This document shows, piece after piece, positions 45 through 52,631 of a stretch of 64,000 nucleotides of DNA. A model generated the notes under the pieces. That model saw nothing but the letters and a program-made list of their open reading frames with translations. It did no database searches and was not told where the DNA came from. This DNA comes from a virus (lineage: Duplodnaviria; Caudoviricetes), in IMG/VR virus record IMGVR_UViG_3300033463_000011, positions 136,234 to 200,233 of that record. One strand, 5' to 3'. Each line of letters begins with the position of its first letter. Position 1 is the first letter of the stretch. A program made the position numbers and the translations under genes.

Positions 45-338
45 ATGATTGTATTCGGTTATGCAAAAGATACAAAATATGCAGGCGATGGAACATTATT
101 AATTCAAACAAGAATTCCTAATGCCCATGGTCCTTATCGTATTACTGATTACAACGGGAAGAAGATAAGAAACTATACAGAAGACAAAGATTTACCTTGG
201 TACCCATCTTTATTGCTTCCATATTTGCCAGGAGATGGAGATGTTGTGGCTCTGACAAGTTTAGACAACACTTCATCTTCCTGGTTAGTATTAGGATTAA
301 CAGGCGGTTCATATAACAACGGAGTAAGAGATTTATGA
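45..338 (+). CDS. Baseplate spike/hub OB-fold protein (gp5-N/GpV-like)
   Basis: RIP..HG, DLPW, P..GD.V and W.VLG pattern typical of gp5/GpV N-terminal OB folds; baseplate neighbourhood. Confidence 0.55.
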   Translation: MIVFGYAKDTKYAGDGTLLIQTRIPNAHGPYRITDYNGKKIRNYTEDKDLPWYPSLLLPYLPGDGDVVALTSLDNTSSSWLVLGLTGGSYNNGVRDL

Positions 339-682
339 AAATTTACTGCACAGAAAATAAACGACCTCTTGATAAATTCATCGGAAAAGATGTATGGATT
401 CGTGTTAAAATACATGAAAGAAACTATGCAGGTAGATGGTACAGTTATTGGGACAAGCCTTACATGATTCGTGTACTTGAATATGACCCTGAAGCAGATT
501 GGTATGTTATTAACAAGATAATAGATACTTTTGGGCATGATAGAGATGGGCAGTATAAAGGAAATAGAACTCAAAAGCAAAAGGCTCGTGAGAATAAACA
601 CTATATCAAAAGAGCAAGTATTAAATTGGTAGAACCTGTTGAGATATTAACAACTCCCGAAATATTTGGAGAAGATTTATGA
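335..682 (+). CDS. MKIY-leader paralogue family protein 1
   Basis: MKIYC leader, LDKFIGKDVWI, C-terminal PVEILTTPEI. Confidence 0.85.
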   Translation: MKIYCTENKRPLDKFIGKDVWIRVKIHERNYAGRWYSYWDKPYMIRVLEYDPEADWYVINKIIDTFGHDRDGQYKGNRTQKQKARENKHYIKRASIKLVEPVEILTTPEIFGEDL

Positions 683-1056
683 AGATATATTGTAATAAAA
701 TTCCTGATATTCCAGATATTGATCCAGAACTAATGCGAGCTATACGTCAAATATGTAACAGAGACGCATGGTTAGCTGTTAGATCAGAGGAATGGTATAA
801 TAAGTGGATTAAAGCAGCAATTGTTAATGGAGAATTAAAATTTGATTCAATATATAATAGTGCTTGGTACCCTAAACACGAAGTTATTGCAAAGGGACAA
901 GACATTTCTTGCTGCGATTTAACTGCTACAGATATCGGTCTTGATGATTGTAGACTAATTAAACCTATAGAGGTGTTATCTTCAGAAGAACTTGCAATGT
1001 ATATTTCATCGGAAGATAATAGATTTAGATTTGACCCAGAGATATATAACGTATGA
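679..1056 (+). CDS. MKIY-leader paralogue family protein 2
   Basis: MKIYC, CNRDAWL, PIEVLSSEEL; ATGA overlap. Confidence 0.85.
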   Translation: MKIYCNKIPDIPDIDPELMRAIRQICNRDAWLAVRSEEWYNKWIKAAIVNGELKFDSIYNSAWYPKHEVIAKGQDISCCDLTATDIGLDDCRLIKPIEVLSSEELAMYISSEDNRFRFDPEIYNV

Positions 1057-1364
1057 AGATATATTGTTCACCAGATGATTATAGAGATTTAATAAAATTC
1101 AAAGGTAAAGACCTTTGGGTCAATGCTTATGTAAGTAAAAGATTTGGCAGCAGGAGCAGGTCATACGAATTTAAGCTTTGGATAAAAATACTGGATGTAT
1201 ATCATGACGAAGCTTCCGATATAACTTATTGTGAATATCTCGCATACACTCCAGATAACATAGTTACAGCGCCTCCATTGCCCGCATATAGAATACAGAT
1301 TATAAAACCTTTTGAAGTAATGACATATAATGAATTAAAGGAGAATTTTGATTCAATCGTATGA
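1053..1364 (+). CDS. MKIY-leader paralogue family protein 3
   Basis: MKIYCS, GKDLWV, PFEVMTYNEL. Confidence 0.85.
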   Translation: MKIYCSPDDYRDLIKFKGKDLWVNAYVSKRFGSRSRSYEFKLWIKILDVYHDEASDITYCEYLAYTPDNIVTAPPLPAYRIQIIKPFEVMTYNELKENFDSIV

Positions 1365-1759
1365 AAATATACGCAGCTACAAGAGAATTATCTTTTTATG
1401 ACTTAATCGGCAAAGATGTTTGGGTTAAGTGCTATCACAAAATTGACGAGGATTTACTTGTTATTCCTCAAAAATTTTATGTTAAGGTTTTATACTTAGA
1501 TGAAAATGAAAAAGGAGTTCCAGTTTTCAAATGCAATGCTATTGACTGTGATTATGTAGCTCGGGCCAACGAATATGAACATTTATCTGCAGAGAAAATA
1601 AATTCTTTTATCAATAAAATTGAAGAATTTCCTGAAGATGAGGACAACTATTTATCTTTAGTAATACAGAAGCCTATACAAGCACTAACTACAGAAGAAA
1701 TAATTGAAGCAATGTCTTCTAACGAAGACGAAGATAATGATGAGGATGAATATTTGTAA
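1361..1759 (+). CDS. MKIY-leader paralogue family protein 4
   Basis: MKIYAA, GKDVWV, PIQALTTEEI. Confidence 0.85.
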   Translation: MKIYAATRELSFYDLIGKDVWVKCYHKIDEDLLVIPQKFYVKVLYLDENEKGVPVFKCNAIDCDYVARANEYEHLSAEKINSFINKIEEFPEDEDNYLSLVIQKPIQALTTEEIIEAMSSNEDEDNDEDEYL

Positions 1760-2103
1760 TGAAGGTAAATCCACTCAATGCAGACAGTAATTTGGAAATA
1801 GCTGATAAACTCATCGGCAAAGATTTGTGGGTTAAGATATATAACCCAGATTACAATGCAATAAATAACACAGCATTCTTGCACGTTTTGCATAAATATA
1901 ACAGAGGTTATGGATATGATAACAAAATGTGGTATAAGTGCGAAATAATTCCTGAATATGCTATTATAGATGGCGGCTATGATTCAGAAGATTGGGAAGT
2001 TATTTCCTCAATTATATTTTACAACGAGTTTGATATGAGAACATTTATATTTCAAGACGAATATTATACTACAGAAGAAATTCAAGAGATGTTTGAACAA
2101 TGA
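1759..2103 (+). CDS. MKIY-leader paralogue family protein 5
   Basis: Variant leader MKVNPLNAD, GKDLWV, YTTEEI. Confidence 0.85.
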   Translation: MKVNPLNADSNLEIADKLIGKDLWVKIYNPDYNAINNTAFLHVLHKYNRGYGYDNKMWYKCEIIPEYAIIDGGYDSEDWEVISSIIFYNEFDMRTFIFQDEYYTTEEIQEMFEQ

Positions 2104-2453
2104 AAATATTAGCTTCAGTACAAGATAATAGAGAATTTTTAGATAAGTTAGTGGGCACAGATAGTTGGGTCTTATGTTATATTAGCAGATCATTTTCACC
2201 TAACGGAGACAGAAGATGGTCTAAAAACAGAATGTGGCTTAATTTTGATAGAAAAGTAGATCCAGCACATTATGTAGTTCACTTAAAAATTGCAGGAATT
2301 GATGGTGATCCATATCTTCCTCCAATGTCGCAATTAGACGATTGTTTACATGGAGAAAGAACACTCTATTTTAGAGATATAAAAGTAGTTAAACCTGTTG
2401 AAATGTTAGCAACAGATGAATTATTTTCTGGACCTGAACTGGACGAGGAGTAA
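2100..2453 (+). CDS. MKIY-leader paralogue family protein 6
   Basis: MKILAS, GTDSWV, PVEMLATDEL. Confidence 0.85.
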   Translation: MKILASVQDNREFLDKLVGTDSWVLCYISRSFSPNGDRRWSKNRMWLNFDRKVDPAHYVVHLKIAGIDGDPYLPPMSQLDDCLHGERTLYFRDIKVVKPVEMLATDELFSGPELDEE

Positions 2454-2455
2454 CA

Positions 2456-2770
2456 ATGAAGATATACGCATCAAAAGTAGATTTAGCTGATCTTGATTAC
2501 TATGTCGGTAAAGATTTATGGGTTAGAGTTACTTCCGCTTCAACTACTTGTTGGGCTAAATTACTATCTAAAGGCGAAGATAGTAGAAGTGTATATTACA
2601 GATGTTTAGCAATATTTGATGGAATGCTAGATGTTGACGGTATGATTCATCTAAACGCTTCAGCATTAGCTGAATTTTACGACCATATATACATAATGTG
2701 GACAGACAACTCGTATGTAGTTCAGCCTATAGATATACTTGAAGAAGACGAAATAATCGAGAGGATATGA
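2456..2770 (+). CDS. MKIY-leader paralogue family protein 7
   Basis: MKIYAS, GKDLWV, PIDILEEDEI; GAGGAG RBS. Confidence 0.85.
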   Translation: MKIYASKVDLADLDYYVGKDLWVRVTSASTTCWAKLLSKGEDSRSVYYRCLAIFDGMLDVDGMIHLNASALAEFYDHIYIMWTDNSYVVQPIDILEEDEIIERI

Positions 2771-2773
2771 TTT

Positions 2774-3118
2774 ATGAAGATATATGCATCATATTATCAT
2801 GACCTAGACCAATTTGCTGGAGAAGATTTATGGGTTAAGATAGATTATCACATGGGTAGTAACTATGATAATCAATCAATGTATGTTAAGGTCTTGCTTA
2901 GTTTTAGGGATACCGAATTCTTGTGGTACGAAGTTCAAGCCGTTGCTACAGATTGGGTAGAGTCCCCAGATTGCTATTTTGGATTAAGAGAATGTATGGA
3001 AAAAGCAAGATTAATAAAAGAAGGTGATTATAGTATATCACGCCCAATGGAATGTTATACTACAGATGAAATGCTAGAGCTTCTTGGAGATTCTCTTGAT
3101 AGAGGAATACTCGATTGA
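2774..3118 (+). CDS. MKIY-leader paralogue family protein 8
   Basis: MKIYAS, GEDLWV, PMECYTTDEM. Confidence 0.85.
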   Translation: MKIYASYYHDLDQFAGEDLWVKIDYHMGSNYDNQSMYVKVLLSFRDTEFLWYEVQAVATDWVESPDCYFGLRECMEKARLIKEGDYSISRPMECYTTDEMLELLGDSLDRGILD

Positions 3119-3127
3119 GGTAACCAT

Positions 3128-3490
3128 ATGAAAATATACGCGTCAACATCGGAAGATAGAAAGCATAAGATCTTGGAAAGCTTAGTAGGTAAAGATCTGT
3201 GGATTAAAGCAAAATTATATGAAGGTAACTTAGCAAAAAATGATTACTATGTGCATATCATTAAGAAACTGCGCCCTCAAATTGGTTTTGATTACGAAGT
3301 TAACCGCATAATGGATAGCTCTGATCTTCCAGGATATGAAGATTCACAAGGAAGAATAACCTTAGATGCTTTTCATAATGCCTATCTTGCACACAGTCAT
3401 TGGATGAATGCATCTGATATACATCCAGTAATTCCAATTGAAGTGTACACATCAGAAGAACTATTTATCGCCCCTGAGGAAGAACAATGA
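3128..3490 (+). CDS. MKIY-leader paralogue family protein 9
   Basis: MKIYAS, GKDLWI, PIEVYTSEEL. Confidence 0.85.
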   Translation: MKIYASTSEDRKHKILESLVGKDLWIKAKLYEGNLAKNDYYVHIIKKLRPQIGFDYEVNRIMDSSDLPGYEDSQGRITLDAFHNAYLAHSHWMNASDIHPVIPIEVYTSEELFIAPEEEQ

Positions 3491-3807
3491 AAATATACGC
3501 AAGCGATCAGAAAAATATTTTAGACAGATTGTGTGGCACAGATCATTGGATAAAAGTCGCTTACAATAACCATATCTATCTGTTTAACATATTAGAACGA
3601 TTTAAGAATATGGATGGCAGAATGATGTTAAGATGCAAAATGGTTATGTGGAATCAACTAGTTATGCCTAAAGATTACAGAAGATCAATAGATTTGATAT
3701 ACAAAATTGACAAATACTATTACGTATATGAAGATCTAGTAACGGTAAAAGAACCAATTGATGTGATAACAGATGACGAATTAATTGATATGATACAAGG
3801 TACCTAA
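3487..3807 (+). CDS. MKIY-leader paralogue family protein 10
   Basis: MKIYAS, GTDHWI, PIDVITDDEL. Confidence 0.85.
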   Translation: MKIYASDQKNILDRLCGTDHWIKVAYNNHIYLFNILERFKNMDGRMMLRCKMVMWNQLVMPKDYRRSIDLIYKIDKYYYVYEDLVTVKEPIDVITDDELIDMIQGT

Positions 3808-3826
3808 AGGTACCTTTAATATTATT

Positions 3827-4138
3827 ATGAAGATATATTGTAGCACAGAATCAGAGTTTGACAAATTTGTAGGAACTGACCTTTGGGTTAGGGCAAATTA
3901 TTATGGAGGAAAATACTTCATAAGGTTTCTGTCCAAAAATAATTATGCAGACGAGCGTGGATATGTTACTAATATGGTTAGAACACTTTGCGCAGGTGAT
4001 GATGGATTCATTCATTATAGTCATGAATATGAATTAGAGTATGTGCAAATGGAAAAAAGTTGGTGTAGTGCAGAAAATCTATTATTAATTAAGCCAATAG
4101 AATGCTATACAACAGATGAATTATTCATAGTAGATTAA
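3827..4138 (+). CDS. MKIY-leader paralogue family protein 11
   Basis: MKIYCS, GTDLWV, PIECYTTDEL. Confidence 0.85.
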   Translation: MKIYCSTESEFDKFVGTDLWVRANYYGGKYFIRFLSKNNYADERGYVTNMVRTLCAGDDGFIHYSHEYELEYVQMEKSWCSAENLLLIKPIECYTTDELFIVD

Positions 4139-4147
4139 GAGAATGTT

Positions 4148-4507
4148 ATGAAGATATATTGTAGTAGAGATCCAAGAAAATTACTAAAACAGTATGTAGG
4201 TAAGGACATATGGATTAAAGTCCACTTGCCTAAATCTGCTCATCACCCAGATGATCCAAATGTCCTCTATATGAGGATATTATCCGAATCGGATAAGTGC
4301 TACACAGTTAACTTACTTAATCCGATAGTTGTAGACTATAACTTCGGCATGAATATAACAGATTATGATTTAAATAAATTCTTAAATAAAATTAGTACTG
4401 TTGACAAAGATGACATAATGTTAATTGAACCTCTAGAAGCATATTCTACAGACGAAATATTTACTGAAGTACCTGATGATTATAACTACGAGGAAGATGG
4501 AGAATAA
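4148..4507 (+). CDS. MKIY-leader paralogue family protein 12
   Basis: MKIYCS, GKDIWI, PLEAYSTDEI. Confidence 0.85.
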   Translation: MKIYCSRDPRKLLKQYVGKDIWIKVHLPKSAHHPDDPNVLYMRILSESDKCYTVNLLNPIVVDYNFGMNITDYDLNKFLNKISTVDKDDIMLIEPLEAYSTDEIFTEVPDDYNYEEDGE

Positions 4508-4510: not shown

Positions 4511-4975
4511 ATGGCAGAAACAACATCGTTATCATTTCCAAATATGTTCAACTTAATAAGTAATCAAGTATCTGTAGACGAGGACTTAAAGTCAGTTACT
4601 ACTAGGTCAAGATTACTTATATTAACTGAGCCCACAGAATTATACAACAACCCTAACTTCGGTGTAGGATTAAAGCGTCATTTGTTTAAGTATAACACTG
4701 AAAATGAAAAAGCATTAATCAAAGATAGGATTGTTGCACAATTAAGATTACATGAACCCGATGTAGTTGCCGAAAAAACATCATTTACTGATGGATTATT
4801 ATTCACAGGAGATTCCAGTTTACAACATGTTGATGATGCAAATGAATTAAATATGACTGTAGCAATGCTAACTACTTTCGGAAAAGAAATCTCACTTGAT
4901 TTAAATCCTAAGCAACCTATAGAAGGCGAGTTAACTATAAATAGTTCGGGCTGGTCTATAACGGAGGTAGATTAA
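4511..4975 (+). CDS. Baseplate wedge / sheath initiator, gp25/GpW-like
   Basis: LILT.P.E...NP.FGVGL...LF and L..HEP pattern of the GPW_gp25 family. Confidence 0.8.
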   Translation: MAETTSLSFPNMFNLISNQVSVDEDLKSVTTRSRLLILTEPTELYNNPNFGVGLKRHLFKYNTENEKALIKDRIVAQLRLHEPDVVAEKTSFTDGLLFTGDSSLQHVDDANELNMTVAMLTTFGKEISLDLNPKQPIEGELTINSSGWSITEVD

Positions 4976-5622
4976 TGAAGATATACGGTGGATATTCAAT
5001 TAAACAAAAACAGAGTATCAATCTTATTAAGCAAGGAATTGATGATCACTTAAGCGAATTTTCTGATTATGTTAGCTATGACATAAAAGCAGTAAAAAAT
5101 GATGTAGATAATAGTTTTAATATATTATTACGCCCTAACTATTACGGCATTACTTGGAAGTATACTGTATCAATTGTACATAATTACATAGGTGAATCTC
5201 TTCATATTTTAGATAGCTATATTAATTCGAACGATACTGATAATTCTTTTGAAAAGATTAAACAATTTTCAGAATTCTTCGAGTACATAAATAATGTGGG
5301 CTGGAGAAGCATACTTTCAAATTATTTTACTTACTTAAATAAAGATCTAAACAATACAATAAAATATTTGAAGAGAATTGAGGGAAAAGACTTGTGGGTT
5401 AAATGTAACTGTCTATGTTATAACGATGACTACGGCAGATATTCTTGGACTTCCGGTGGGTATGTTAAAATTTTACGTATAGAAGACGATGTAATAGAAT
5501 ATAATTACAAAACACTATATGGATCAGATGGCAGCGGATCATGCAATATTTATGATATACAATTATCTAGTCCTTTAGAGGTATTAAGTACAGAAGAGTT
5601 GTTAGATACAGATGCTACATAA
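4975..5622 (+). CDS. MKIY-leader paralogue family protein 13 (N-terminally extended)
   Basis: MKIYGG leader, ~130 aa insertion, then GKDLWV...PLEVLSTEEL. Confidence 0.85.
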   Translation: MKIYGGYSIKQKQSINLIKQGIDDHLSEFSDYVSYDIKAVKNDVDNSFNILLRPNYYGITWKYTVSIVHNYIGESLHILDSYINSNDTDNSFEKIKQFSEFFEYINNVGWRSILSNYFTYLNKDLNNTIKYLKRIEGKDLWVKCNCLCYNDDYGRYSWTSGGYVKILRIEDDVIEYNYKTLYGSDGSGSCNIYDIQLSSPLEVLSTEELLDTDAT

Positions 5623-5651
5623 GACATAAAATAATAAGCAGGAGGTCACTA

Positions 5652-6392
5652 ATGAGAATATATTCATCAAAAACATCAGAAAAACTTGCAAAATTATCCG
5701 AGCTTAAAAGTTCTCAAAGTGAAATCAACAAAGCAAAACGCGCATTGAATAGAAAGATTAATGAAGTAAAGAAGCGAATTGACGCAGAATTTAAAGAAGA
5801 GGCCGCAATACTTCATACTGATTCTTTACTTAAAGTTAAAAATGAAAAATACGGGTTTGTTTTAAGATTTTCTTCTACTTACGGAGTAAGGTGGTATGTA
5901 GATGTAGATGCAGATTCAATTAAGTCGCATATATTCAAAGAAGATAACATAATAGAATGCGGAGATATATTTATTACAATTGGAAATATATTAAATAAAA
6001 TATATAATAATTCGTTTGAAGATGAAATACTGGAGTTAAATACGCTAGACGACGAATATAAGCAATTGCAATCAGATGCTTTATATTTCAAATCGGGAAT
6101 ATCCGCTCTTGAGTTAGAAAAATTTGTTGGTAGAGATATATGGGTCGAAGCAAATATTAAACATCTCACTAATTATTCAGTCCCACAACATGCATTCATA
6201 AAGATAAAAGATATAAAATCAGATAATAAGGTGGCGATTAGTTGGAAATTTGCTCATACTAATCGAGACGGTACAATATATATTTCAGGATATGGTAGAG
6301 ATGATGGATTAACAGATGCATATAACATATCATTAGTACAGCCTATAAATACATTAACAGATGAAGAAATGAATGAATTAATAAATTTGTAA
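5652..6392 (+). CDS. MKIY-leader paralogue family protein 14 (N-terminally extended)
   Basis: MRIYSS leader, helical insertion, GRDIWV...PINTLTDEEM; GGAGG RBS. Confidence 0.85.
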   Translation: MRIYSSKTSEKLAKLSELKSSQSEINKAKRALNRKINEVKKRIDAEFKEEAAILHTDSLLKVKNEKYGFVLRFSSTYGVRWYVDVDADSIKSHIFKEDNIIECGDIFITIGNILNKIYNNSFEDEILELNTLDDEYKQLQSDALYFKSGISALELEKFVGRDIWVEANIKHLTNYSVPQHAFIKIKDIKSDNKVAISWKFAHTNRDGTIYISGYGRDDGLTDAYNISLVQPINTLTDEEMNELINL

Positions 6393-6393: not shown

Positions 6394-6696
6394 ATGAAGA
6401 TATATGCTACAACAAATCAATATGATCTATCTCGATACTCGGGCAGAGATGTATATGTGTATGCTTGCGTGCAGGGAGTAAAGGTATCTTGGTATAAATG
6501 GACTAAAATAATAGATATTCACGGAGATGTTGCAAGTGTTATATTCTGGGACTATCCAGAATCCAAACAGGTGTTTAATATTCCTCTAGAGTCAATTAGT
6601 ATAGATACAGAGTTTCCTGTTGAGGTTATGACTTATAATGAGATACTAGATGAAAAATTAGACAATGCTAGAAGAAGATTAGCAGGAGAGAATTAA
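6394..6696 (+). CDS. MKIY-leader paralogue family protein 15
   Basis: MKIYAT, GRDVYV, PVEVMTYNEI. Confidence 0.85.
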   Translation: MKIYATTNQYDLSRYSGRDVYVYACVQGVKVSWYKWTKIIDIHGDVASVIFWDYPESKQVFNIPLESISIDTEFPVEVMTYNEILDEKLDNARRRLAGEN

Positions 6697-6697
6697 G

Positions 6698-7012
6698 TTG
6701 AAGATATATTGCAAGGAACAATTACATGAATCAAATCCTTATAAATATATAGGAAGAGATGTATGGATCCATGTTTTGTATGGCGCTGATTATGCTTGGG
6801 TCAAATTCAAAGATAGCGGTAAAGACGAAAACGGATACTACTTCATTGTTGATTATGTAGACGACCAATGGTTAGAAAACCCAGAATGTAATATAGAAAT
6901 TGAAATGGATCATGATGCTAAATGGTATACACACCACATGTGCATATCTAATCCTGTGGAAATATTAACAACGGAAGAACTTTTAGCTAGAGATTATGAT
7001 GCATACATTTGA
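6698..7012 (+). CDS. MKIY-leader paralogue family protein 16
   Basis: TTG start, KIYC, GRDVWI, PVEILTTEEL. Confidence 0.85.
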   Translation: MKIYCKEQLHESNPYKYIGRDVWIHVLYGADYAWVKFKDSGKDENGYYFIVDYVDDQWLENPECNIEIEMDHDAKWYTHHMCISNPVEILTTEELLARDYDAYI

Positions 7013-7036
7013 AGAAGCAACAATAGGTAATACTAT

Positions 7037-7414
7037 ATGAAGATATATTGTAGCACTAACAAAAGTATATTTGAGAAACTTGCAGGTAAAGATATGTGGG
7101 TTAAAGGAACTGCATCTCGTGATGCTGCAGGTATAGTTAGCACATTAACTATATCCGTTTGGTTTAAGATACTTTACGCAGATAGTATTATATGCCGTTT
7201 TAATATAGTTAATCCTTTAGTTATGTCAAATTCAGCTATACTTGAATGCTATATTGACGATACATATACAATGCATACAACAGATAAAGATAGTTCTATG
7301 ACTTATACAATAAACTATCCTTTAGACACTCTTACAGATGAAGAATTCAAAGAGATAAAGCAACAAGACAACTGGACAGCAATTTTGTTTAAAGAGTATT
7401 CTGGAGAAGCCTGA
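7037..7414 (+). CDS. MKIY-leader paralogue family protein 17
   Basis: MKIYCS, GKDMWV, PLDTLTDEEF. Confidence 0.85.
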   Translation: MKIYCSTNKSIFEKLAGKDMWVKGTASRDAAGIVSTLTISVWFKILYADSIICRFNIVNPLVMSNSAILECYIDDTYTMHTTDKDSSMTYTINYPLDTLTDEEFKEIKQQDNWTAILFKEYSGEA

Positions 7415-7734
7415 TGAAGATATATTGTAGTAACAATTCAAACGAACTCGACAAATTTATCGGCAAAGATATCTGGGTTAAGGTATATGACAAATATGTC
7501 GAGTGTTTTAAATACATACGAATTGTATCATCAAATAGCACTTCATACAGCTATAATCAATTATTTGCATCAAGTCTAGAAAATCCTTATGGTGATGTTA
7601 TGTTTACCGGAGGCGGTAATCGCCTTTTAGGATACTTTACAAATAATGTTTATCAAGACTACAAAAGTACTTTAGAAATAGTGCATCCTGTAACTTGTTA
7701 TACCACTTCTGAAATATTTCCGGAGGAAGATTAA
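7414..7734 (+). CDS. MKIY-leader paralogue family protein 18
   Basis: MKIYCS, GKDIWV, PVTCYTTSEI. Confidence 0.85.
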   Translation: MKIYCSNNSNELDKFIGKDIWVKVYDKYVECFKYIRIVSSNSTSYSYNQLFASSLENPYGDVMFTGGGNRLLGYFTNNVYQDYKSTLEIVHPVTCYTTSEIFPEED

Positions 7735-8064
7735 ATGAAAATATACGCAAGTAAAAGATATCATTATTATGAAGATATATTAGACGATATCTGCGGAAAA
7801 GATTTATGGGTATTTATACGATATAATTCATCTACTGTTTATGCACGTGGTGGATACTACCCTCAAAATTATTGGGTACAAGTTGTACGCAAAGACAATG
7901 ATAACTATATTGTAAAAATGATAAATGACAATACTTATGGATTTGACACTTTAGATGACATAGAACCTAATAAACTCAACACATTCAGAATTTTAGACAT
8001 ATATGAACCGTTAGAGTTGTTATCAACAGAAGAATTGATTGAAGATAAGGAATTAGATGAATGA
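7735..8064 (+). CDS. MKIY-leader paralogue family protein 19
   Basis: MKIYAS, GKDLWV, PLELLSTEEL. Confidence 0.85.
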   Translation: MKIYASKRYHYYEDILDDICGKDLWVFIRYNSSTVYARGGYYPQNYWVQVVRKDNDNYIVKMINDNTYGFDTLDDIEPNKLNTFRILDIYEPLELLSTEELIEDKELDE

Positions 8065-8402
8065 AAATATATTGTAGTAGCCAGAAACAGCTCAACAGAT
8101 ATGCAGGTAGAGATTTATGGTTTCATGGTAATATAAATAATCATGTAGCTAAAAATGGAGTTACTACTTGGGTTAGAGTTTTAGATAAAGTGCCTTCGCA
8201 ATATATTGATACTTATAAAGTTCAGTGTGTTCCTGATTTTCTTATTGAAGATGAATATTATTTTGACACTGAAAGAATTGTTGGTTGGCTGCAGGATATA
8301 CGTAATGTGTCTTATGACAAGATTTACATAAGTGATGAAGCATTAACTTCCGAAGAATTGTTTGGAGATAACTTATGGGAAGTTGAGGAGTGGATAAAAT
8401 GA
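8061..8402 (+). CDS. MKIY-leader paralogue family protein 20
   Basis: MKIYCS, GRDLWF, ALTSEEL. Confidence 0.85.
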   Translation: MKIYCSSQKQLNRYAGRDLWFHGNINNHVAKNGVTTWVRVLDKVPSQYIDTYKVQCVPDFLIEDEYYFDTERIVGWLQDIRNVSYDKIYISDEALTSEELFGDNLWEVEEWIK

Positions 8403-8746
8403 AAATATATTGTTCAAAAAATAATCCTACTATAGACGATTTCATCGGCAAAGATGTTTGGGTAAAATGTTATAGGTCTGATAGATATGATTTCAAGAGA
8501 TTAGTTTATGTTAATCTCTACGATAAACTTGGCGAAGATCAGTACTACGGAAAAAATATATCGGCTAATGTTATAGATGATATGCGCACGGTATTTGATC
8601 AATACATGGATGTTAGCGGAAGAGACGATGTGAGAGATTTTGTTGAAGGTGAACCTTGGGAGTTTCCTGCAAAGTTGGAATTATTCAAACCAGTAGAAAT
8701 AATTACACATGATGAATTAATTGATATGCTAGGTGATGAGGAATGA
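8399..8746 (+). CDS. MKIY-leader paralogue family protein 21
   Basis: Start moved to ATG 8399 (MKIYCS) after GAGGAG; GKDVWV, PVEIITHDEL. Confidence 0.85.
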   Translation: MKIYCSKNNPTIDDFIGKDVWVKCYRSDRYDFKRLVYVNLYDKLGEDQYYGKNISANVIDDMRTVFDQYMDVSGRDDVRDFVEGEPWEFPAKLELFKPVEIITHDELIDMLGDEE

Positions 8747-9072
8747 AAATATACGGATTTACAATAAATAAGAAGCTAGATAGATTTGTAGGTAGAGATG
8801 TTTGGGTTAAAGTTTATCAAGACGCCGCTCCTGTTGTTACTGCACCTATTCTCTATATAAGAATTTTATCCAGAGAAGGAAACAAACTTACACTAAACAC
8901 ACTGAATCCAGATATCGTTGAAAATAGCAGACACTGTAGAGATTTACGAATTATTTTTGAAAATATAGTAACTTGGCCTCAAGAAAGAATTTTACTAATA
9001 GAACCAGTTGAAGCATTAACAACAGAAGAACTAAAAGAGATAAACGAAGGAAATACAGATATAGTCGATTGA
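8743..9072 (+). CDS. MKIY-leader paralogue family protein 22
   Basis: MKIYG, GRDVWV, PVEALTTEEL. Confidence 0.85.
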   Translation: MKIYGFTINKKLDRFVGRDVWVKVYQDAAPVVTAPILYIRILSREGNKLTLNTLNPDIVENSRHCRDLRIIFENIVTWPQERILLIEPVEALTTEELKEINEGNTDIVD

Positions 9073-11589: not shown

Positions 11590-11859
11590 ATGAAAATATA
11601 CGCAACCGGAGTTCATAATGATATACTAAACAAAATAGTTGGTAAAGAATTATGGATAGAGGGTTCTTTAGAGCCCGATGACGAACCTGTGTATACATGG
11701 ATACAGATAGCCGAAATAGATACATATGATGAGTCTTGTTATATTCATTTCGTAGATAATTGCATAATCCGCTGTTTTTGGTGCCCAATTAATAATATTT
11801 CACTCAAATTTCCATATAATATCATAACAACTGACGAATTATCTGAATTGACATTATGA
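11590..11859 (+). CDS. MKIY-leader paralogue family protein 24
   Basis: MKIYAT, GKELWI, PYNIITTDEL. Confidence 0.85.
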   Translation: MKIYATGVHNDILNKIVGKELWIEGSLEPDDEPVYTWIQIAEIDTYDESCYIHFVDNCIIRCFWCPINNISLKFPYNIITTDELSELTL

Positions 11860-12206
11860 AAATATACGCTAACAATTCAATCAAATCAATTTTAGACAAA
11901 TTTATCGGCAAAGATTTGTGGATAAGAGTTCAGTTATGCGATCATATACCATATAGCATGTATTGGATAATTATATTAGATAAATTTGAAAATCTTGACG
12001 GAACTTATTCTTATCATATAATGAAAGCACCTTCAACAGATAAAATTTTTGACGACTATTCATACAACACGCTTTCTAGAAAAATACGTAGCCGAATAGC
12101 AGAAAGAGATTCTGATTTTGTTTTTGACATTAGTTGTGATAAAATTAGATTGACTAAGCCTCTTGATGTAGCAACAACTGAAGAATTGTTTGGAGAACAA
12201 GAATGA
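11856..12206 (+). CDS. MKIY-leader paralogue family protein 25
   Basis: MKIYAN, GKDLWI, PLDVATTEEL. Confidence 0.85.
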   Translation: MKIYANNSIKSILDKFIGKDLWIRVQLCDHIPYSMYWIIILDKFENLDGTYSYHIMKAPSTDKIFDDYSYNTLSRKIRSRIAERDSDFVFDISCDKIRLTKPLDVATTEELFGEQE

Positions 12207-13718: not shown

Positions 13719-15131
13719 ATGTCGAATAATATGAATCCACTTGACATTATTAAACGACTTGATGTGAAACAAAACGTCACTATAAGAGTTATAGATGAAC
13801 CTACTGGAAAAGTAGTTCAAGAACATATCGGACACAACGCTGCTACTAATTCTTTGCTTACAGGAATAGCACATTATCTTATGGGAGATGGAGTTCTTAA
13901 TCAAGCTAAAGACACATTATCAATGTGGATTCCACAATACATTTCATTAGGAACAATGGGGCTTACTTCTCAAGATGCAGAAGATTACCTTCCTGTAGGA
14001 TTAGGATACACTCCAGTTGCTCCTGCAAATGCAACTGAAAATGAGAAAAAGTTAAACGAAGAATTAAGATTTTCTGAATATGTAAATCAGTCTCCTGGAT
14101 TTGGCGCAGATGGATACGATGCATACACAAACAACGACAGAGAGTGGTTCGGGTTAGGTAGGCCATATTCCAGCAAACCTGCTAAAGCGGTTCAGGATTT
14201 TTATAACAAAGACGATGAATATATTCTTACATCAACTCCATTAACTGGTACAAAGGATAGCGTAATTTCATTAATCATATATCCTTATGGAGAAATTAAT
14301 CAAGATATGCATGATACATCTATTTCAAGAATAGCAGTATCTGTAGATGATTACGATATATCATTAAATGATAACAATCAGTACGAGCTGACAATATCGA
14401 CAGCTATTCCCGATGGCAGTAGAATTGCATTGATATATACAGTTGAAAGCAAAGATGCTGCTAATTGTGAGCTTATACAAGCTGATACACTCAGAAGTAA
14501 GATAACTTATAGGAATTTAATTCCGGAAGTGCAATCTGAAATTCCTAATACTTTAGACGTAATCTATTCTGCGTTTGTATCAACTGGTGCATTAAAAGAA
14601 TTCAGAGGAGATAATGATTACATTTATATAACTGAAGCAGGATTATGGTCAAAGCCATATTATAATAATAGCGGAGATAACGGACTCCTTGCCGGTTATA
14701 GAATTATGCCAACAGATGATGAAGTGTTAGAACTTGCTCTCGAAGAAACCTTTACAGGTGACGGAATTACAACTGAGTTCACACTTGAGCAGACTGCAAT
14801 TGAAATTAGCTCAGTTCAAGTTAACGGAGAATTTGTATCAGACTATAATTTAGACACTAGTACAAATAAAGTGGTGTTTGTTGAAGCACCTTCAGATTCT
14901 GCAGAAATAATAGTCATTTATGTATATAAGACAACTGATTCTTGGAAGAATATGTCAATTCCAGAAAATAGAGAAGCAGTTCAAAAAAGTATCATAAGAA
15001 TAGGAACTAATCAAGTAGCTCAAGTTATTTGGAAATTACAGCTTGGAGGACTTGAACAGCTTAATGGATTAAGGTACATTTATCCTTCTCAATATCCTAA
15101 AGAAGTTTGGAATGTTTGGAGTACATCATGA
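13719..15131 (+). CDS. Tail/baseplate structural protein
   Basis: HN, YISLGT and ITEAGL motifs of fibre-attachment proteins; FTGDG.TTEFTL...VNG...DY...F..AP beta-sandwich. Confidence 0.65.
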   Translation: MSNNMNPLDIIKRLDVKQNVTIRVIDEPTGKVVQEHIGHNAATNSLLTGIAHYLMGDGVLNQAKDTLSMWIPQYISLGTMGLTSQDAEDYLPVGLGYTPVAPANATENEKKLNEELRFSEYVNQSPGFGADGYDAYTNNDREWFGLGRPYSSKPAKAVQDFYNKDDEYILTSTPLTGTKDSVISLIIYPYGEINQDMHDTSISRIAVSVDDYDISLNDNNQYELTISTAIPDGSRIALIYTVESKDAANCELIQADTLRSKITYRNLIPEVQSEIPNTLDVIYSAFVSTGALKEFRGDNDYIYITEAGLWSKPYYNNSGDNGLLAGYRIMPTDDEVLELALEETFTGDGITTEFTLEQTAIEISSVQVNGEFVSDYNLDTSTNKVVFVEAPSDSAEIIVIYVYKTTDSWKNMSIPENREAVQKSIIRIGTNQVAQVIWKLQLGGLEQLNGLRYIYPSQYPKEVWNVWSTS

Positions 15132-15463
15132 TTATTAAGAATTTAAACATCACAGCAAGCAGTTGGTTAGGCGAATACAACGCAGATTATTCATTAGAAC
15201 AGCTAAATGAAAATATAGCGTATCCTTTGCAGGATATGGTTGAGGGATACTATAATGATATTCAAGTATTTTTCCGGCCGTATATTGTAGATGGGCATGT
15301 TGAGGTAGATTGCAGTGTACCTGATATTGATGCATTTACAATATATGCGAAAATTGACAATAGAAAAATAAAATCTTGTAAAGATTTAGAAAAATTAGTA
15401 CCCGAATTATTCTTGCAGTTTGACGACAAATATACTAAGTTAACTAGTTATGATGAGGAATAA
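15128..15463 (+). CDS. Hypothetical protein with ITAS leader
   Basis: ATGA overlap at 15128, MIIKNLNITASS. Confidence 0.7.
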   Translation: MIIKNLNITASSWLGEYNADYSLEQLNENIAYPLQDMVEGYYNDIQVFFRPYIVDGHVEVDCSVPDIDAFTIYAKIDNRKIKSCKDLEKLVPELFLQFDDKYTKLTSYDEE

Positions 15464-30855: not shown

Positions 30856-31224
30856 ATGAAGGTCTACGTTAAATCGGCATTAGACAACTCAAACATTCCT
30901 GATGAAAATAAGAACGGTGACTGCTTCAAAGTTGCGTTTGAAGCGTTAACACGAAATCATAACACAGGTTATTTAGTACATGGAGTTGTAACTGGTAGAG
31001 GTGCTATTGAAGGATTACAATATGCACATGCTTGGGTAGAAGATGCTGGTGAAGTATTTGATAATACACTTCCTGATGGATTAAAACAACTTCCAAAAGA
31101 AGTATACTATGGATTAGCTAATGTTGTATTGACACGTAAATATAATTTTAAACAAGCATTAGAAAATGCAGTTAGTACTGAAACATATGGACCTTGGGAT
31201 AATGTATTTGATAATTATTATTAA
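30856..31224 (+). CDS. Transglutaminase/papain-like fold protein (MKVYVKSA leader)
   Basis: GDC...LVHG...HAWVE...FD Cys-His-acid pattern. Confidence 0.55.
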   Translation: MKVYVKSALDNSNIPDENKNGDCFKVAFEALTRNHNTGYLVHGVVTGRGAIEGLQYAHAWVEDAGEVFDNTLPDGLKQLPKEVYYGLANVVLTRKYNFKQALENAVSTETYGPWDNVFDNYY

Positions 31225-35242: not shown

Positions 35243-35367
35243 AACTTTACAAACGAACAAGAAATACTAATAAGCCTGTTATGAATGCTTCTCAACAAAG
35301 GGGCTATGACAAGGCTATGCCTTACATTAAAAAGTATGCAAAGGCTATGAAGGTGCTTGGTAGATGA
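35239..35367 (+). CDS. Small putative Phd-like antitoxin (42 aa)
   Basis: ATGA overlaps at both ends; C-terminal KKYAKAMKVLGR helix directly upstream of doc. Confidence 0.45.
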   Translation: MKLYKRTRNTNKPVMNASQQRGYDKAMPYIKKYAKAMKVLGR

Positions 35368-37238: not shown

Positions 37239-37763
37239 ATGAAACGCTACATAAAATCTTCAATAAAACCAATAGATGCCATACCCGAGAATCCAAATAT
37301 AAAGTCACGGGATTTGACACCTAAGAATTATAGCCAAAAAATTTATGATGATTTAAAAGAGGCATATGATAAACATATTGCCGTTTTTGAATTTGAGGGC
37401 GATTATAACTACAATAACTTTACAACTTATGCACATGAGCCTATTAAAAGACTTACTCAGGAACTTATAGTGCCTGGAGTTGAGAAGGCAATAAAAGAAA
37501 AGTTTATGAAAGATATGCATAAGGATATAAGCTATTTACCTAATGACCTTATTAAGTTAAATTTGGTAGATGGTTATGGTTCTTTTATAACAATAGTTAC
37601 TATTCGTGGTGAAGATAGAAAACATGTTTATGGTAAAATAAATTTCAATTATGCCGAAGAACTTAAAACCCGTTGCATAAGGAGAATTAAATTGCATTTG
37701 CAAGAACGACAATTTGAAAGAAACGCAGAACGTAGAAGGCGTAGTAAACTAGGAGGAATATAA
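37239..37763 (+). CDS. Hypothetical protein (MKRYIKSS leader)
   Basis: AGGA RBS. Confidence 0.75.
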   Translation: MKRYIKSSIKPIDAIPENPNIKSRDLTPKNYSQKIYDDLKEAYDKHIAVFEFEGDYNYNNFTTYAHEPIKRLTQELIVPGVEKAIKEKFMKDMHKDISYLPNDLIKLNLVDGYGSFITIVTIRGEDRKHVYGKINFNYAEELKTRCIRRIKLHLQERQFERNAERRRRSKLGGI

Positions 37764-51078: not shown

Positions 51079-52053
51079 ATGCACAGAAAGGATCAAGTTA
51101 TGTCAAAAGATGGAAAGTCAAGAAAGTCCTATGCTTATTCCTTTAATTCAGATTTCTGGAGCGAGCAGAGAGTAAAGAAGGGGCTTACACTTAAGCAGAT
51201 TGCTAGAACACTTGGAGTATCTAGAAGTGCGGTAGGCAACTACTTTTCAGGTAAAACAATACCACATGATACTTTTATCGTGCGCGTATGCGATCTGTTA
51301 GGTGTAGACCACGATAAGGGAATGCTTGAATTTCAGCGAGCTAATCGTGCATACAATTCAGGAGCTAAGAAATCTTCTCGCTCTGGATCTAGCGTAGCAT
51401 TCTCAACTAAGCGACCTTATGTTAAGAAGGGACAGAGACCTCAACAGCCTAAGCGGTTAGACAATTTCTGGATAAACAAGAAAAATGAGTTTAAGCTCAC
51501 TAATAAAGAGATTGGCGAAATGCTTAAACTCAATGCTAACACTGTATGGGCTTATCTCAGCGGCTACCTTATACCTCCGCAGAAAGCAATGGAAGACATC
51601 TGTGATCTCTTTGGAGTAAGTATTACTAGAGGTAAGCAGGAGTTCGAATTAGCACATAAGCAGTATGAGGAAGACCATTCTGGTAAGTACTACGCACCAG
51701 CTACTAAGCCGGAGCCTGCTGCAGAACCTAAAGTTGAACCCGCTGCAGAACCTAAAGTTGAACCTGCTGCAGAACCTGATGTTATTATTTATGAACACAG
51801 TAAGCCTGCTAAGCCCACTAACTACGCAAGAGAATATGCTATTGCTTCATGTCTCTACAAGTCAATACCTTCTTATGAGAAGTTTATAACACTTCTTACA
51901 ATTATTGAGAATAACTCAAGTAACATACTTGAAGCTGCATATAAGAAGGTTGATTTTGATACCTATCTTGAATTAGTATCAGCGGTTAGAGAAGTTGATA
52001 CTGAAGATGACGATATGATGAAAGACGCTATTTTTAATCTTTTGAAGAGGTAA
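51079..52053 (+). CDS. Double XRE-HTH DNA-binding protein
   Basis: Two HTH units (LTLKQIA..LGVS....NYFSG; LTNKEIG..L.L.....AYLSG), PAAEPKVE linker repeats. Confidence 0.8.
   Translation: MHRKDQVMSKDGKSRKSYAYSFNSDFWSEQRVKKGLTLKQIARTLGVSRSAVGNYFSGKTIPHDTFIVRVCDLLGVDHDKGMLEFQRANRAYNSGAKKSSRSGSSVAFSTKRPYVKKGQRPQQPKRLDNFWINKKNEFKLTNKEIGEMLKLNANTVWAYLSGYLIPPQKAMEDICDLFGVSITRGKQEFELAHKQYEEDHSGKYYAPATKPEPAAEPKVEPAAEPKVEPAAEPDVIIYEHSKPAKPTNYAREYAIASCLYKSIPSYEKFITLLTIIENNSSNILEAAYKKVDFDTYLELVSAVREVDTEDDDMMKDAIFNLLKR
51712..51777 (+). repeat. 24-nt coding tandem repeat (EPAAEPKV, ~2.7 copies)
   Basis: gctgcagaacctaaagttgaacc repeated. Confidence 0.8.
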
Positions 52054-52054
52054 C

Positions 52055-52249
52055 ATGCCCCGAAAGCTAAACTACAAACCTAAAGGGATTCTTTGTTCGG
52101 AATGTTATTTTGCTATGAAAATTGATAATAGTAAAGAAATTTACTATTGTACAAAATTCATAGCAAATAACCGAAATCAAGTATTCAAAGGTGTCCATTC
52201 TTGTGAATTTGGAACAAAAGAAAAACCTGCGGAACTGCAGGAAGTATAA
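52055..52249 (+). CDS. Small Cys-containing hypothetical protein
   Basis: GAGG RBS, CxxC...C...C. Confidence 0.6.
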   Translation: MPRKLNYKPKGILCSECYFAMKIDNSKEIYYCTKFIANNRNQVFKGVHSCEFGTKEKPAELQEV

Positions 52250-52257
52250 CCTTTTAT
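52247..52257 (+). promoter_or_regulatory. TAACCTT(T/A) putative late promoter (representative copy)
   Basis: Copies at about 9090, 13646, 15461, 18022, 19106, 25066, 25936, 29015, 32066, 54539, 63289, mostly just upstream of structural or leader-bearing genes. Confidence 0.65.
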
Positions 52258-52289
52258 AGATATATGTTTAATTAGGAGGTTATCTGAAG

Positions 52290-52631
52290 ATGAATCTTAA
52301 ACATACAAAGATAATGGCAGCTGATGATTTATTTGACGAAAATATGAATTCTGACGAAGAGGCCTTAGGCAATCAGTTAGATGATATTCAAGACAACATT
52401 GAGGATATTCAAGATACCGTAGACGATATTCAAGAAGATGATATCGCTATTGATGTTGATAACAACATTGTTAATCACCTCATTGCAGAATGCGAAAATT
52501 GCAAAGGTATATTTATTTCAGCAATGATTGCATCTGACCAAGATGTTGATAGCATAAACGGTGTATGTCCTCTTTGTAATAAAGACACTACACAAAATCT
52601 TAAATGGATTATCAAAGAGTATCCGGAGTAA
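52290..52631 (+). CDS. Acidic zinc-ribbon protein with IMAA leader
   Basis: AGGAGG RBS; CENC...CPLC. Confidence 0.75.
   Translation: MNLKHTKIMAADDLFDENMNSDEEALGNQLDDIQDNIEDIQDTVDDIQEDDIAIDVDNNIVNHLIAECENCKGIFISAMIASDQDVDSINGVCPLCNKDTTQNLKWIIKEYPE

What the first reader, a model, noticed from the sequence alone, without database searches (positions are those of the whole stretch)
335..52631. Candidate capsid-targeting and protease-release system tagging about 40 proteins with an MK.Y..[IV]x[A/C/S] leader
Seen: nearly all of the 25 array paralogues start MKIY[A/C/G/S]. Unrelated proteins start similarly: 15128 ITAS, 15886 YVGAAS, 17179 MKRY..VYAG, 25118 MKIYIKS, 25982 KIYC, 26916 MKRYIKA, 27953 MKIYAA, 29056 YIKAA, 29965 IKAS, 30223 MKLYIYA, 30856 MKVYVKSA, 33260 VRAS, 35239 MKLY..MNAS, 37239 MKRYIKSS, 52290 IMAA. 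The same [IVL]xA-[S/A/N] motif recurs about 10 times in the scaffold part of the prohead protease and about 5 times in the capsid propeptide. It does not appear at the N-termini of the baseplate or replication proteins. Known: T4 internal proteins carry a 10-aa capsid-targeting leader that the prohead protease removes, and IPI* is an injected anti-restriction protein. Inference: this phage packages and injects an unusually large arsenal of cargo proteins using a minimal 5-7 aa tag.
Basis: partly seen in the sequence, partly recalled or inferred. Interest (0 to 1): 0.92.

Follow-up and report, generated by a model that had tools for sequence, protein, structure and literature searches.

The report
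Clip-off leader tags on phage proteins
About one in five proteins of this uncultured 200-kb phage starts with the same 5-8-residue tag. The tag ends in what comparative evidence indicates is the cutting site of the phage's T4-type head protease, an Ala|Ser site like that of herpesvirus proteases rather than T4's Glu site. These proteins are therefore probably loaded into the head and clipped, but no cut or packaging has been shown.

Summary
In the whole 200,233-bp genome, 55 of 84 proteins that start M-K have Tyr at position 4 (P about 6e-48). Outside the ~36-member GKDxWV small-protein family the figure is 26 of 55 (P about 2e-18).

The tag is selected at protein level. It lies outside the predicted fold, and in two-domain homologues it sits only at the extreme N-terminus.

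New here: the motif that ends the tag, [IV]-x-A|S, is almost certainly the cleavage site of the gp21-type prohead protease.
- It is enriched in the fused scaffold tails of about 70 related proteases.
- It replaces, position for position, the [LIVM]-x-E|S sites of a sister clade at two protease autoprocessing sites and at the capsid maturation site. T4 gp21 matches the first protease site.
- It co-varies with an Arg-to-Pro change next to the catalytic His.
- The site resembles herpesvirus assemblin sites.

The link between protease and tag is well supported by comparison. Packaging, cleavage and injection are inferred by analogy with T4.

First readers noted the same tag in other windows of this genome. 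The scan has also reported T4-like leader systems with x-E or Phe-ended motifs in other uncultured phages. Interest is moderate to high, as a new variant of a known kind.

The parts
335..4507 (+). Twelve tandem genes of the ~110-aa GKDxWV family. Ten start M-K-I-Y-[A/C]-[S/A/T/N]; the genes at 1759 and 2100 have decayed tags.
   Evidence: the model puts residues 1-10 outside the fold
4975..6392 (+). Two longer tagged proteins (215 and 246 aa; M-K-I-Y-G-G and M-R-I-Y-S-S), BLAST-linked to the family. They lie just after a baseplate wedge gene (4511-4975, untagged).
6394..9072 (+). Nine more tandem family genes with the M-K-I-Y-[A/C/G] tag
11590..12206 (+). Two family genes after the gp6-like baseplate wedge gene (9138-11030, untagged)
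15128..15463 (+). Small protein with a basic leader ending I-T-A-S. Its orthologues in relatives end I-T-A-S or I-K-A-S.
15886..17004 (+). 372-aa acidic, Cys-rich protein with the long leader class (M-K-R-x-F-T-K-Y-P-S-N-Y-V-G-A-A-S). It also has internal I-K-A-S and V-I-A-S sites.
17179..17976 (+). 265-aa protein starting M-K-R-Y-V-R-N, with a C-terminal phosphoribosyltransferase domain. It is a weak tag member: no A/S at the expected place until Y-A-G at residues 10-12.
18075..19568 (+). Prohead protease fused to a scaffold. The gp21/assemblin-fold domain spans aa ~20-165, with near-invariant H70 and invariant S125. The coiled-coil tail carries 9 strict [IVL]-x-A-[SA] sites.
18570..18626 (+). 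Predicted autoprocessing sites at the end of the protease domain: V-A-A|S (aa 166-169) and V-C-A-A (aa 181-184). They align with V-V-E|S and L-K-E|S of the Glu-type sister clade; the first also aligns with I-T-E|S of T4 gp21.
19603..21042 (+). gp23-type major capsid protein
19603..19854 (+). Predicted capsid propeptide (aa 1-84). It is basic and Ser/Thr/Arg-rich, with five loose sites. The predicted maturation cut is V82-M-A84|A85-T, aligned with [ML]-x-E|[ST]-T of three cultured Glu-type phages.
25118..31224 (+). Block of eight tagged genes downstream of the capsid gene, starting at 25118, 25982, 26916, 27953, 29056, 29965, 30223 and 30856. None matches Pfam or PHROGs. Only 25982 and 26916 show BLAST similarity to each other.
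33260..33667 (+). 135-aa basic protein after the gp13-like neck gene. Its N-terminal region has repeated [IV]-R-A-[SN] sites that are conserved in relatives.
35239..35367 (+). 42-aa ORF starting M-K-L-Y-K-R, with V-M-N-A-S at residues 14-18
37239..37763 (+). 174-aa basic protein starting M-K-R-Y-I-K-S-S
52290..52631 (+). 113-aa protein with I-M-A-A at residues 8-11. It is a weak candidate: it has the motif only, without M-K-x-Y.

Best explanation
The tags are short N-terminal propeptides. They present the recognition site of the phage's own gp21-family prohead protease.

In this clade the protease's preferred site appears to have changed from the T4-type [L/I]-x-Glu| to [I/V]-x-Ala|Ser, the same kind of site that herpesvirus assemblins cut. 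Tagged proteins would be M-K-x-Y-I-[K/R]-A|S, M-K-I-Y-[A/C]|S, or a basic leader ending [I/V]-x-A|[S/A].

By analogy with the T4 capsid targeting sequence, which also starts M-K-x-Y, tagged proteins would be taken into the scaffolding core of the prohead and clipped once by the protease. The scaffold tail and the capsid propeptide would be chopped at many such sites. The clipped proteins would then stay in the head and probably leave with the DNA at infection.

Shown by computation: the tag exists and is N-terminus specific; the protease fold is established; the motif is enriched; the motif co-varies by position across clades.

Inferred: the actual cleavage, the exact scissile bond, packaging, ejection, and any function in the host.
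For: 1. Tag statistics and protein-level selection. Synonymous codons are mixed (AAA 33 / AAG 27, TAT 38 / TAC 26) and position 3 varies among I, L, R, V and Q.

2. The tag is not part of a domain. The family model (pLDDT 89.6) has residues 1-10 as coil with pLDDT 65. The linker to the first conserved element varies in length. Two-domain homologues from other metagenomes carry the tag only at the very N-terminus, not before the second domain.

3. Protease identity. Pfam gives Peptidase_S77. The clade profile hits T4 gp21 (5JBL) at E 2.6e-14. The model's best fold match is 5JBL (rmsd 2.1 A), followed by HCMV, KSHV, PrV, HSV, EBV and VZV proteases.

4. Motif enrichment. In the own proteome the protease-scaffold protein is the top carrier of [IVL]-x-A-[SA] (9 against 1.5 expected). 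In about 70 of 81 full-length representatives at 41-63% identity, the tails are enriched in this motif (z above 2, mostly 3-7) and not in [IVL]-x-E. In 54 at 30-42% identity the reverse holds. Over 389 tail sites, P3 is I/V (4.6x), P1 is A (5x) and P1' is S (3.4x).

5. Position-specific covariation. At the end of the protease domain, I/V/L-A-A|S is present in 45 of the 47 near-clade homologues aligned, where the sister clade has V-V-E|S and T4 has I-T-E|S. A second site, [IV]-C-A-[SA], stands where the sister clade has L-K-E|S. The capsid maturation site is [IV]-x-[AG]|A-T where HSE3, LIS04 and GXN1 have [ML]-x-E|[ST]-T.

6. A candidate pocket change. Arg four residues after the catalytic His is present in 100% of the Glu-type clade and in T4. 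It is Pro in 88% of the Ala-type clade.

7. Clade distribution. The long-form tag occurs 16, 15, 11 and 5 times in four related IMG/VR records, always on the coding strand. It occurs 0 times in the reversed control and 0 times in the 181-kb Glu-type phage LIS04.

8. Precedent. The T4 CTS M-K-T-Y-Q-E-F-I-A-E is cut once by gp21 and loads about 1000 internal protein molecules or any fused protein (PMC8442874). T4 internal proteins are a diverse defence-countering set sharing only the CTS (PMC3012670). PrV assemblin sites are Y-L-Q-A|T and V-Q-A|S (PMC4498786).
Against: There are no proteomic or biochemical data: no cut and no virion presence has been shown.

Tagged proteins are mostly acidic (median pI 4.9 for the family, 5.4 for the others), unlike the highly basic T4 internal proteins (PMC8442874).

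Sixty-odd cargo species, 22% of the ORFs, is far more than in any characterised phage.

Several tagged genes sit behind the same promoter-like motif (G-A-A-T-C-G-T-T-A-T-A) as replication genes, so late co-expression with head genes is not established.

A site only 5-7 residues from the N-terminus gives the protease very little on the P side.

All characterised gp21-family phage proteases cut after Glu (PMC5694885), so the Ala|Ser specificity has no experimental precedent in phages.

Coiled-coil periodicity could contribute to motif enrichment in the tails. It would not explain the positional replacements.
Confidence: 0.55

Rival explanations
1. The tags are cut by the prohead protease, but the tagged proteins are disposable prohead core or scaffold-associated components. 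They would be degraded or expelled on maturation rather than retained and injected.
For: In T4 most core proteins are degraded and expelled (PMC8442874). Some tagged proteins have further internal sites: 15886, 25118 and 33260. The acidic charge argues against co-packing with DNA.
Against: Most family members have only the single N-terminal site. Forty hypervariable paralogues are hard to explain as scaffold parts. Orphan, fast-evolving proteins fit host-interaction roles better.
Confidence: 0.15
2. The tag is a recognition or handling signal for something other than the head protease, such as a modifying enzyme, a chaperone, a stability signal or a localisation signal. Its resemblance to the protease motif would be coincidental.
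For: Elsewhere in this scan, a shared N-terminal tag first read as a capsid signal was linked instead to a radical-SAM enzyme (e1-127136). The M-K-x-Y part is not explained by the cleavage motif alone. Some tagged genes share a promoter-like motif with replication genes.
Against: No candidate partner enzyme was seen to co-vary with the tag. The end of the tag matches the motif that is enriched and positionally conserved in the protease, scaffold and capsid propeptide. The capsid protein and protease themselves carry N-terminal sites of the same type.
Confidence: 0.17
3. The tag is a passive inheritance: a shared 5' gene end spread by duplication or cassette recombination, or a translation-initiation optimum, with no function as a peptide.
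For: Most carriers are paralogues. The same genome has a conserved junction linker between cassettes elsewhere (e1-5666460). AAA as the second codon is common in AT-rich genomes.
Against: Synonymous codons are freely mixed and the upstream DNA differs. Twenty-four unrelated proteins carry the tag. Tyr4 and the [AS] positions are conserved as amino acids across relatives at 58-84% protease identity. The low-GC phage LIS04 has none.
Confidence: 0.05

Closest known systems
Phage T4 capsid targeting sequence (CTS) on internal proteins IPI, IPII, IPIII and Alt, removed by prohead protease gp21 (Mullaney and Black 1996, cited in PMC5694885; PMC3012670; PMC8442874)
   Same: A gp21-family protease plus a gp23-type capsid. 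A short N-terminal leader is shared by otherwise unrelated, fast-evolving proteins. The leader starts M-K-x-Y and ends in the protease's hydrophobic-x-P1 motif, which is also used in the scaffold and the capsid propeptide.
   Different: P1 is Ala (or Cys/Ser), not Glu. The tag is 5-8 residues, not 10. About 60 carriers (22% of ORFs) against fewer than 10 in T4. Carriers are mostly acidic, not basic. The protease is fused to its scaffold. Nothing has been shown experimentally.
Herpesvirus assemblin (MEROPS S21) release and maturation sites, e.g. PrV Y-L-Q-A|T and V-Q-A|S (PMC4498786)
   Same: Same protease fold. The protease is N-terminally fused to a scaffold. A conserved [V/L/I]-x-A|S site lies exactly at the end of the protease domain. 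The long tag, Y-[IV]-[KRQ]-A-[SA], reads like a release site.
   Different: By sequence the enzyme belongs with T4 gp21 (Pfam S77; 5JBL is the best match), not S21. The site similarity may be convergence or retention. Herpesviruses are not known to use such sites as N-terminal tags on many cargo proteins.
Propeptide processing of head, inner-body and ejection proteins in giant phages phiKZ, 201phi2-1 and SPN3US by gp175/gp245 (PMC5694885, PMC10052503)
   Same: A large phage with a gp21-like protease. [quoted passage not shown] The protease cuts its own C-terminus just after the catalytic domain.
   Different: Those proteases cut after Glu (S/A/G-x-E or A-x-E). Their propeptides are usually 20-130 residues. 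They process 8-19 substrates, not about 60.

Membership tests
T4-type CTS / gp21-cleaved propeptide system | Phage encodes a gp21-family (Pfam S77, clan SH) prohead protease | tested here: met
   Pfam S77 E 7.5e-5 for the single sequence. The clade profile hits 5JBL at E 2.6e-14. Foldseek top hit is 5JBL (prob 1.0, rmsd 2.1 A). S125 is invariant and H70 near-invariant.
T4-type CTS / gp21-cleaved propeptide system | gp23-type capsid protein with an N-terminal propeptide | tested here: met
   Pfam Gp23 E 1.5e-17, aligned from residue 107. An ~84-aa basic N-terminal extension is absent from the aligned core.
T4-type CTS / gp21-cleaved propeptide system | One short N-terminal leader shared by otherwise unrelated proteins | tested here: met
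   24 singleton or paired proteins plus a family of 36; P 2e-18 outside the family.
T4-type CTS / gp21-cleaved propeptide system | Leader ends in the protease's cleavage motif, which also recurs in the scaffold and the capsid propeptide | tested here: met
   Met by sequence inference only.
T4-type CTS / gp21-cleaved propeptide system | Cleavage C-terminal to Glu in [L/I]-x-E | tested here: not met
   Tags lack the Glu motif. [IVL]-x-E is not enriched in near-clade tails (z about 0) or at N-termini (66/283 against 52/250 in interiors).
T4-type CTS / gp21-cleaved propeptide system | Tagged proteins present in virions with the leader removed; leader sufficient to load a foreign protein | not testable with these tools
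   The phage is uncultured and no proteome is available.
T4-type CTS / gp21-cleaved propeptide system | Internal proteins highly basic | tested here: not met
   Median pI is 4.9 for the family and 5.4 for other tagged proteins; 23% of the latter are above 8.5.
Herpesvirus assemblin (S21) type processing | Assemblin fold with a Ser/His catalytic centre | tested here: met
   Herpesvirus proteases rank 4-43 in Foldseek (E 2e-3 to 9e-2), below T4 gp21.
Herpesvirus assemblin (S21) type processing | [V/L/I]-x-A|S site at the protease/scaffold boundary (release site) | tested here: inconclusive
   The motif I/V/L-A-A-S is present at that boundary in 45 of the 47 near-clade homologues aligned. Cleavage was not testable.
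Herpesvirus assemblin (S21) type processing | Sequence membership in S21 | tested here: not met
   Pfam and PDB profile searches give only S77 / T4 gp21.
phiKZ-like giant-phage propeptide processing | S/A/G-x-E cleavage motif | tested here: not met
   Same evidence as for the Glu motif above.

The most novel reading that the evidence does not exclude
A widespread clade of uncultured large phages has re-tuned the T4-type head protease from Glu to Ala|Ser specificity, matching herpesvirus assemblin. It uses a minimal 5-7-residue clip-off tag to load more than a fifth of its proteome into the capsid for delivery into the host. That cargo includes a 40-member hypervariable family and phage-specific expansions. 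This would be the largest injected-protein repertoire known and the shortest natural capsid-loading tag.
Probability: 0.3. Interest if true: 0.85.

Novelty: new variant of a known kind. Interest (0 to 1): 0.64.

Why it matters
If the inference holds, it matters in four ways.

1. It gives the first phage example of a gp21-family protease with assemblin-like Ala|Ser specificity. This links the phage and herpesvirus maturation systems at the level of substrate code, not only fold. It also offers a simple candidate determinant to test, Arg to Pro next to the catalytic His.

2. The protease's substrate code can be read from genomes alone, through motif enrichment in the fused scaffold and positional covariation. 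That method is reusable for predicting virion cargo in uncultured phages.

3. It points to a very large, fast-evolving set of probable head-delivered proteins of unknown function. This is a natural place to look for new counter-defence activities.

4. A 5-7-residue tag would be an attractive minimal handle for loading foreign proteins into capsids.

A specificity switch could also matter for host sensors that detect head-protease activity through decoy loops carrying the T4-type motif (PMC12991175). That link is speculation.

Tried and rejected
- Complex prediction of the protease domain with a family member gave no answer. It counts neither for nor against binding.
- Pfam and PHROG scans of 30 tagged proteins gave nothing except BspA-type LRRs in two and one weak DUF hit.
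- The fold search of the family model against the PDB gave no match below E 1e-3, only weak SH3/Tudor-like barrels.
- A homologue search for the tagged protein at 26916 found only itself and one fragment.
- A single-sequence PDB search with the protease found nothing; the profile was needed.
- A DNA-level or recombination origin of the tag is rejected on codon diversity.
- Lipoprotein or secretion signals are rejected: the tag is too short, is not hydrophobic, and has no lipobox.
- I looked for an analogous uniform tag in the Glu-type cultured phages LIS04 (first 50 kb) and HSE3 (41 kb). None was found. LIS04 shows only a mild N-terminal excess of [ILVM]-x-E (33/73 against 19/68, P 0.04).
- I searched for a late-promoter signature to time the tagged genes. 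The T4 late box T-A-T-A-A-A-T-A is not positioned upstream of genes. The one enriched intergenic motif precedes replication genes and some tagged genes alike, so timing stays open.
- More distant near-clade contigs (L015-L018) were too short to count tags.

Full report
SETTING. The window is the last 64 kb of a single 200,233-bp phage contig (GC 0.35) with nearly all genes on the + strand. The nearest cultured phages share only 27-29% capsid protein identity: Bacillus phage HSE3, Listeria phage LIS04 and Streptococcus phage GXN1. The paralogue family has no match among 50,697 phage records.

THE OBSERVATION.
- Genome-wide, 61 of 279 + strand ORFs have M-[KR]-x-Y within the first 12 residues; in the window, 31 of 94 do.
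- Of 84 ORFs that start M-K, 55 have Tyr at position 4, against a Tyr frequency of 5.6% (P 6e-48). Leaving out the paralogue family, 26 of 55 do (P 2e-18).
- Internal M-K-x-Y occurs three times in 57,000 residues.
- After trimming the first 10 residues, all-against-all BLAST joins 36 proteins into one family (the ~110-aa GKDxWV proteins), makes two pairs, and leaves about 22 singletons.
- The family uses M-K-I-Y-[A/C]-S. The others use M-K-[ILRV]-Y-I-[KR]-[AS]-[AS].
- A looser third class has a basic leader ending [IV]-[TKR]-A-[SA]. It includes the capsid protein (I-T-A-A at residues 15-18) and the genes at 15128, 15886, 29965, 33260 and 35239.

PROTEIN-LEVEL SIGNAL, NOT DNA. Synonymous codons are mixed (AAA 33 / AAG 27; TAT 38 / TAC 26; all Ala and Ser codons are used). 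Position 3 varies among five amino acids, and the upstream DNA differs between genes.

THE TAG IS AN APPENDAGE.
- In the family alignment the spacer between the tag and the first conserved element (L-D-K-F-[IV]-G-K-D-x-W-V) varies in length.
- The AlphaFold model (pLDDT 89.6) has residues 1-10 as coil with pLDDT 65; the fold starts at residue 11.
- Homologues from other metagenomes include two-domain proteins. These carry the tag only at the extreme N-terminus, never before the second domain.

THE HEAD MODULE IS T4-LIKE. The gene at 19603-21042 is a gp23-type capsid protein (Pfam E 1.5e-17). The gene at 18075-19568 is a gp21-type protease fused to a coiled-coil scaffold. A profile of 64 homologues hits T4 gp21 (5JBL) at E 2.6e-14. 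The model (pLDDT 89) matches 5JBL best (rmsd 2.1 A), followed by a long list of herpesvirus assemblins. S125 is invariant and H70 nearly invariant. Both align with positions that are Ala in the crystallised gp21 chain. I take these to be inactivating mutations of the catalytic pair; that is my inference.

WHAT THE PROTEASE CUTS. This is the main new result. It rests on five lines of evidence.
(a) Within the proteome, the protease-scaffold protein is the top carrier of [IVL]-x-A-[SA]: 9 sites against 1.5 expected, reached in 0 of 500 shuffles.
(b) An exhaustive search found 2,666 homologues of the protease domain. I ran a shuffle test on their C-terminal tails.
  - Of 81 full-length representatives at 41-63% identity, about 70 are enriched in [IVL]-x-A-[SA] (z above 2, mostly 3-7) and the group is not enriched in [IVL]-x-E.
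  - In 54 representatives at 30-42% identity the pattern is reversed.
  - HSE3 likewise has 32 Glu-type sites and 2 Ala-type sites.
  - Over 389 tail sites, P3 is I/V (4.6-fold), P1 is Ala (5-fold), P1' is Ser (3.4-fold) and P2 is often Thr.
(c) At the end of the protease domain, 45 of the 47 near-clade homologues aligned read I/V/L-A-A-S. The sister clade reads V-V-E-S there, and T4 gp21 reads I-T-E-S. About fifteen residues on, [IV]-C-A-[SA] stands where the sister clade has L-K-E-S. C-terminal self-cleavage just after the catalytic domain is a conserved trait of this protease family (PMC5694885). It is also the position of the herpesvirus release site (PMC4498786).
(d) At the capsid maturation site the near clade has [IV]-x-[AG]|A-T-N (here V82-M-A84|A85). 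This aligns column for column with [ML]-x-E|[ST]-T in HSE3, LIS04 and GXN1.
(e) The only clade-specific change from basic to non-basic lies four residues after the catalytic His. It is Arg in all Glu-type members and in T4, and Pro in 88% of the Ala-type clade.
Together these make it very likely (my estimate 0.8) that this clade cuts [I/V]-x-A|S. Published gp21-family phage proteases all cut after Glu (PMC5694885, PMC12991175). Herpesvirus assemblins cut Y-L-Q-A|T and V-Q-A|S type sites (PMC4498786).

LINK TO THE TAGS. The long tag ends Y-I-[KR]-A-S, the short one K-I-Y-[A/C]-S, and the basic class [IV]-x-A-[SA]. All fit the inferred site. I-K-A-S occurs verbatim twice in the scaffold tail. 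[IVL]-x-A-[SA] is enriched in the first 15 residues of proteins here (31/283 against 9/250 in interiors, P 0.0015), and [ILVM]-x-E is not. The T4 CTS is M-K-T-Y-Q-E-F-I-A-E, cut once after the final Glu (PMC8442874). It shares the M-K-x-Y start and the I-x-P1 end with the tags found here.

CLADE DISTRIBUTION. Six IMG/VR relatives (protease 58-84% identical) carry the same tags on other genes, including their own paralogue expansions. They also carry a second, longer leader class ending Y-[IV]-x-A-[SA]; the window gene at 15886 has this class too. A degenerate DNA pattern for the long tag hits 16, 15, 11 and 5 times in four partial relative genomes and 17 times in this genome. All hits are on the coding strand. 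There are no hits for the reversed control and none in the 181-kb LIS04 genome. More distant clade members show looser forms, but those contigs were short.

WHAT REMAINS INFERENCE. No data show cleavage, virion presence or injection.
- Tagged proteins have essentially no known domains.
- They have few homologues.
- They are mostly acidic, unlike the basic T4 internal proteins.
- Their expression timing is open: a promoter-like motif precedes replication genes and some tagged genes alike.
- The complex prediction gave no answer.

My odds: tags cut by the head protease 0.65; tagged proteins enter proheads 0.55-0.6; proteins retained and injected with host-directed functions about 0.3.

RELATION TO EARLIER NOTES. 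First readers flagged the same tag in other windows of this genome (e1-5666486, e1-5666474, e1-5666498). I confirmed it genome-wide. The scan has also reported T4-like leader systems with x-Glu or Phe-ended motifs in other uncultured phages. One case, e1-127136, turned out to be linked to a different enzyme; I keep that as a rival reading.

Noticed in passing
window 15886-17004; L008:5320-6202, L009:5220-5471 and 9013-9543, L011:2676-3433 and 7766-8477, L012:4101-4722: A second, longer leader class (M-K-R-x-F-T-K-Y-P-S-N-Y-[IV]-x-A-[SA]) heads several small proteins clustered near the conserved 470-aa gene in relatives, and one protein here. It ends in the same Y-[IV]-x-A-[SA] core as the short tag.
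   Followed up: partly
window 18294-18296 (protease residue 74): Pro in 88% of the Ala-type clade against Arg in 100% of the Glu-type clade and in T4 gp21, four residues after the catalytic His. This is a candidate P1-pocket determinant.
   Followed up: partly
P0151-P0157, P0161, P0166 (other metagenomes): Tandem two-domain versions of the GKDxWV family, many with strongly acidic C-terminal tails. The tag is present only at the N-terminus.
   Followed up: partly
window 21245-25084: Two large proteins follow the capsid gene. Each has an N-terminal zinc ribbon, DUF7487, and a C-terminal DNA-methylase-like or Mom-like domain. They are conserved at this place in several relatives (L009, L012, L015) and are probably DNA-modification enzymes.
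   Followed up: no
window 40440-41168 and 45363-45436: A tRNA cluster (Leu-taa, Pro-tgg, Gln-ttg and others). ARAGORN reads the tRNA at 40529-40609 with a four-base anticodon (t-t-t-c, 8-nt loop).
   Followed up: no
window 43140-45300: About 2 kb with no ORF of 50 aa or more, higher GC (0.41) and no Rfam match at gathering score. Two copies of the promoter-like motif lie at its start.
   Followed up: no
genome-wide, e.g. window 13615, 39285, 42134, 50052, 55349, 63436: A promoter-like motif (G-A-A-T-C-G-T-T-A-T-A) lies 11-134 nt (often 40-65 nt) upstream of about 25 genes. These include replication, queuosine-pathway and some tagged genes. The T4 late box is not used in this way.
   Followed up: partly
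L006:4406-7387 (genome 104406-107387): Two tagged proteins (560 and 426 aa) carry BspA-type leucine-rich repeats. They are the only large tagged proteins and the only ones with a clear Pfam domain.
   Followed up: no
window 17179-17976: A protein with a tag-like start and a C-terminal phosphoribosyltransferase domain (Pfam E 3e-6) sits just upstream of the protease gene.
   Followed up: no
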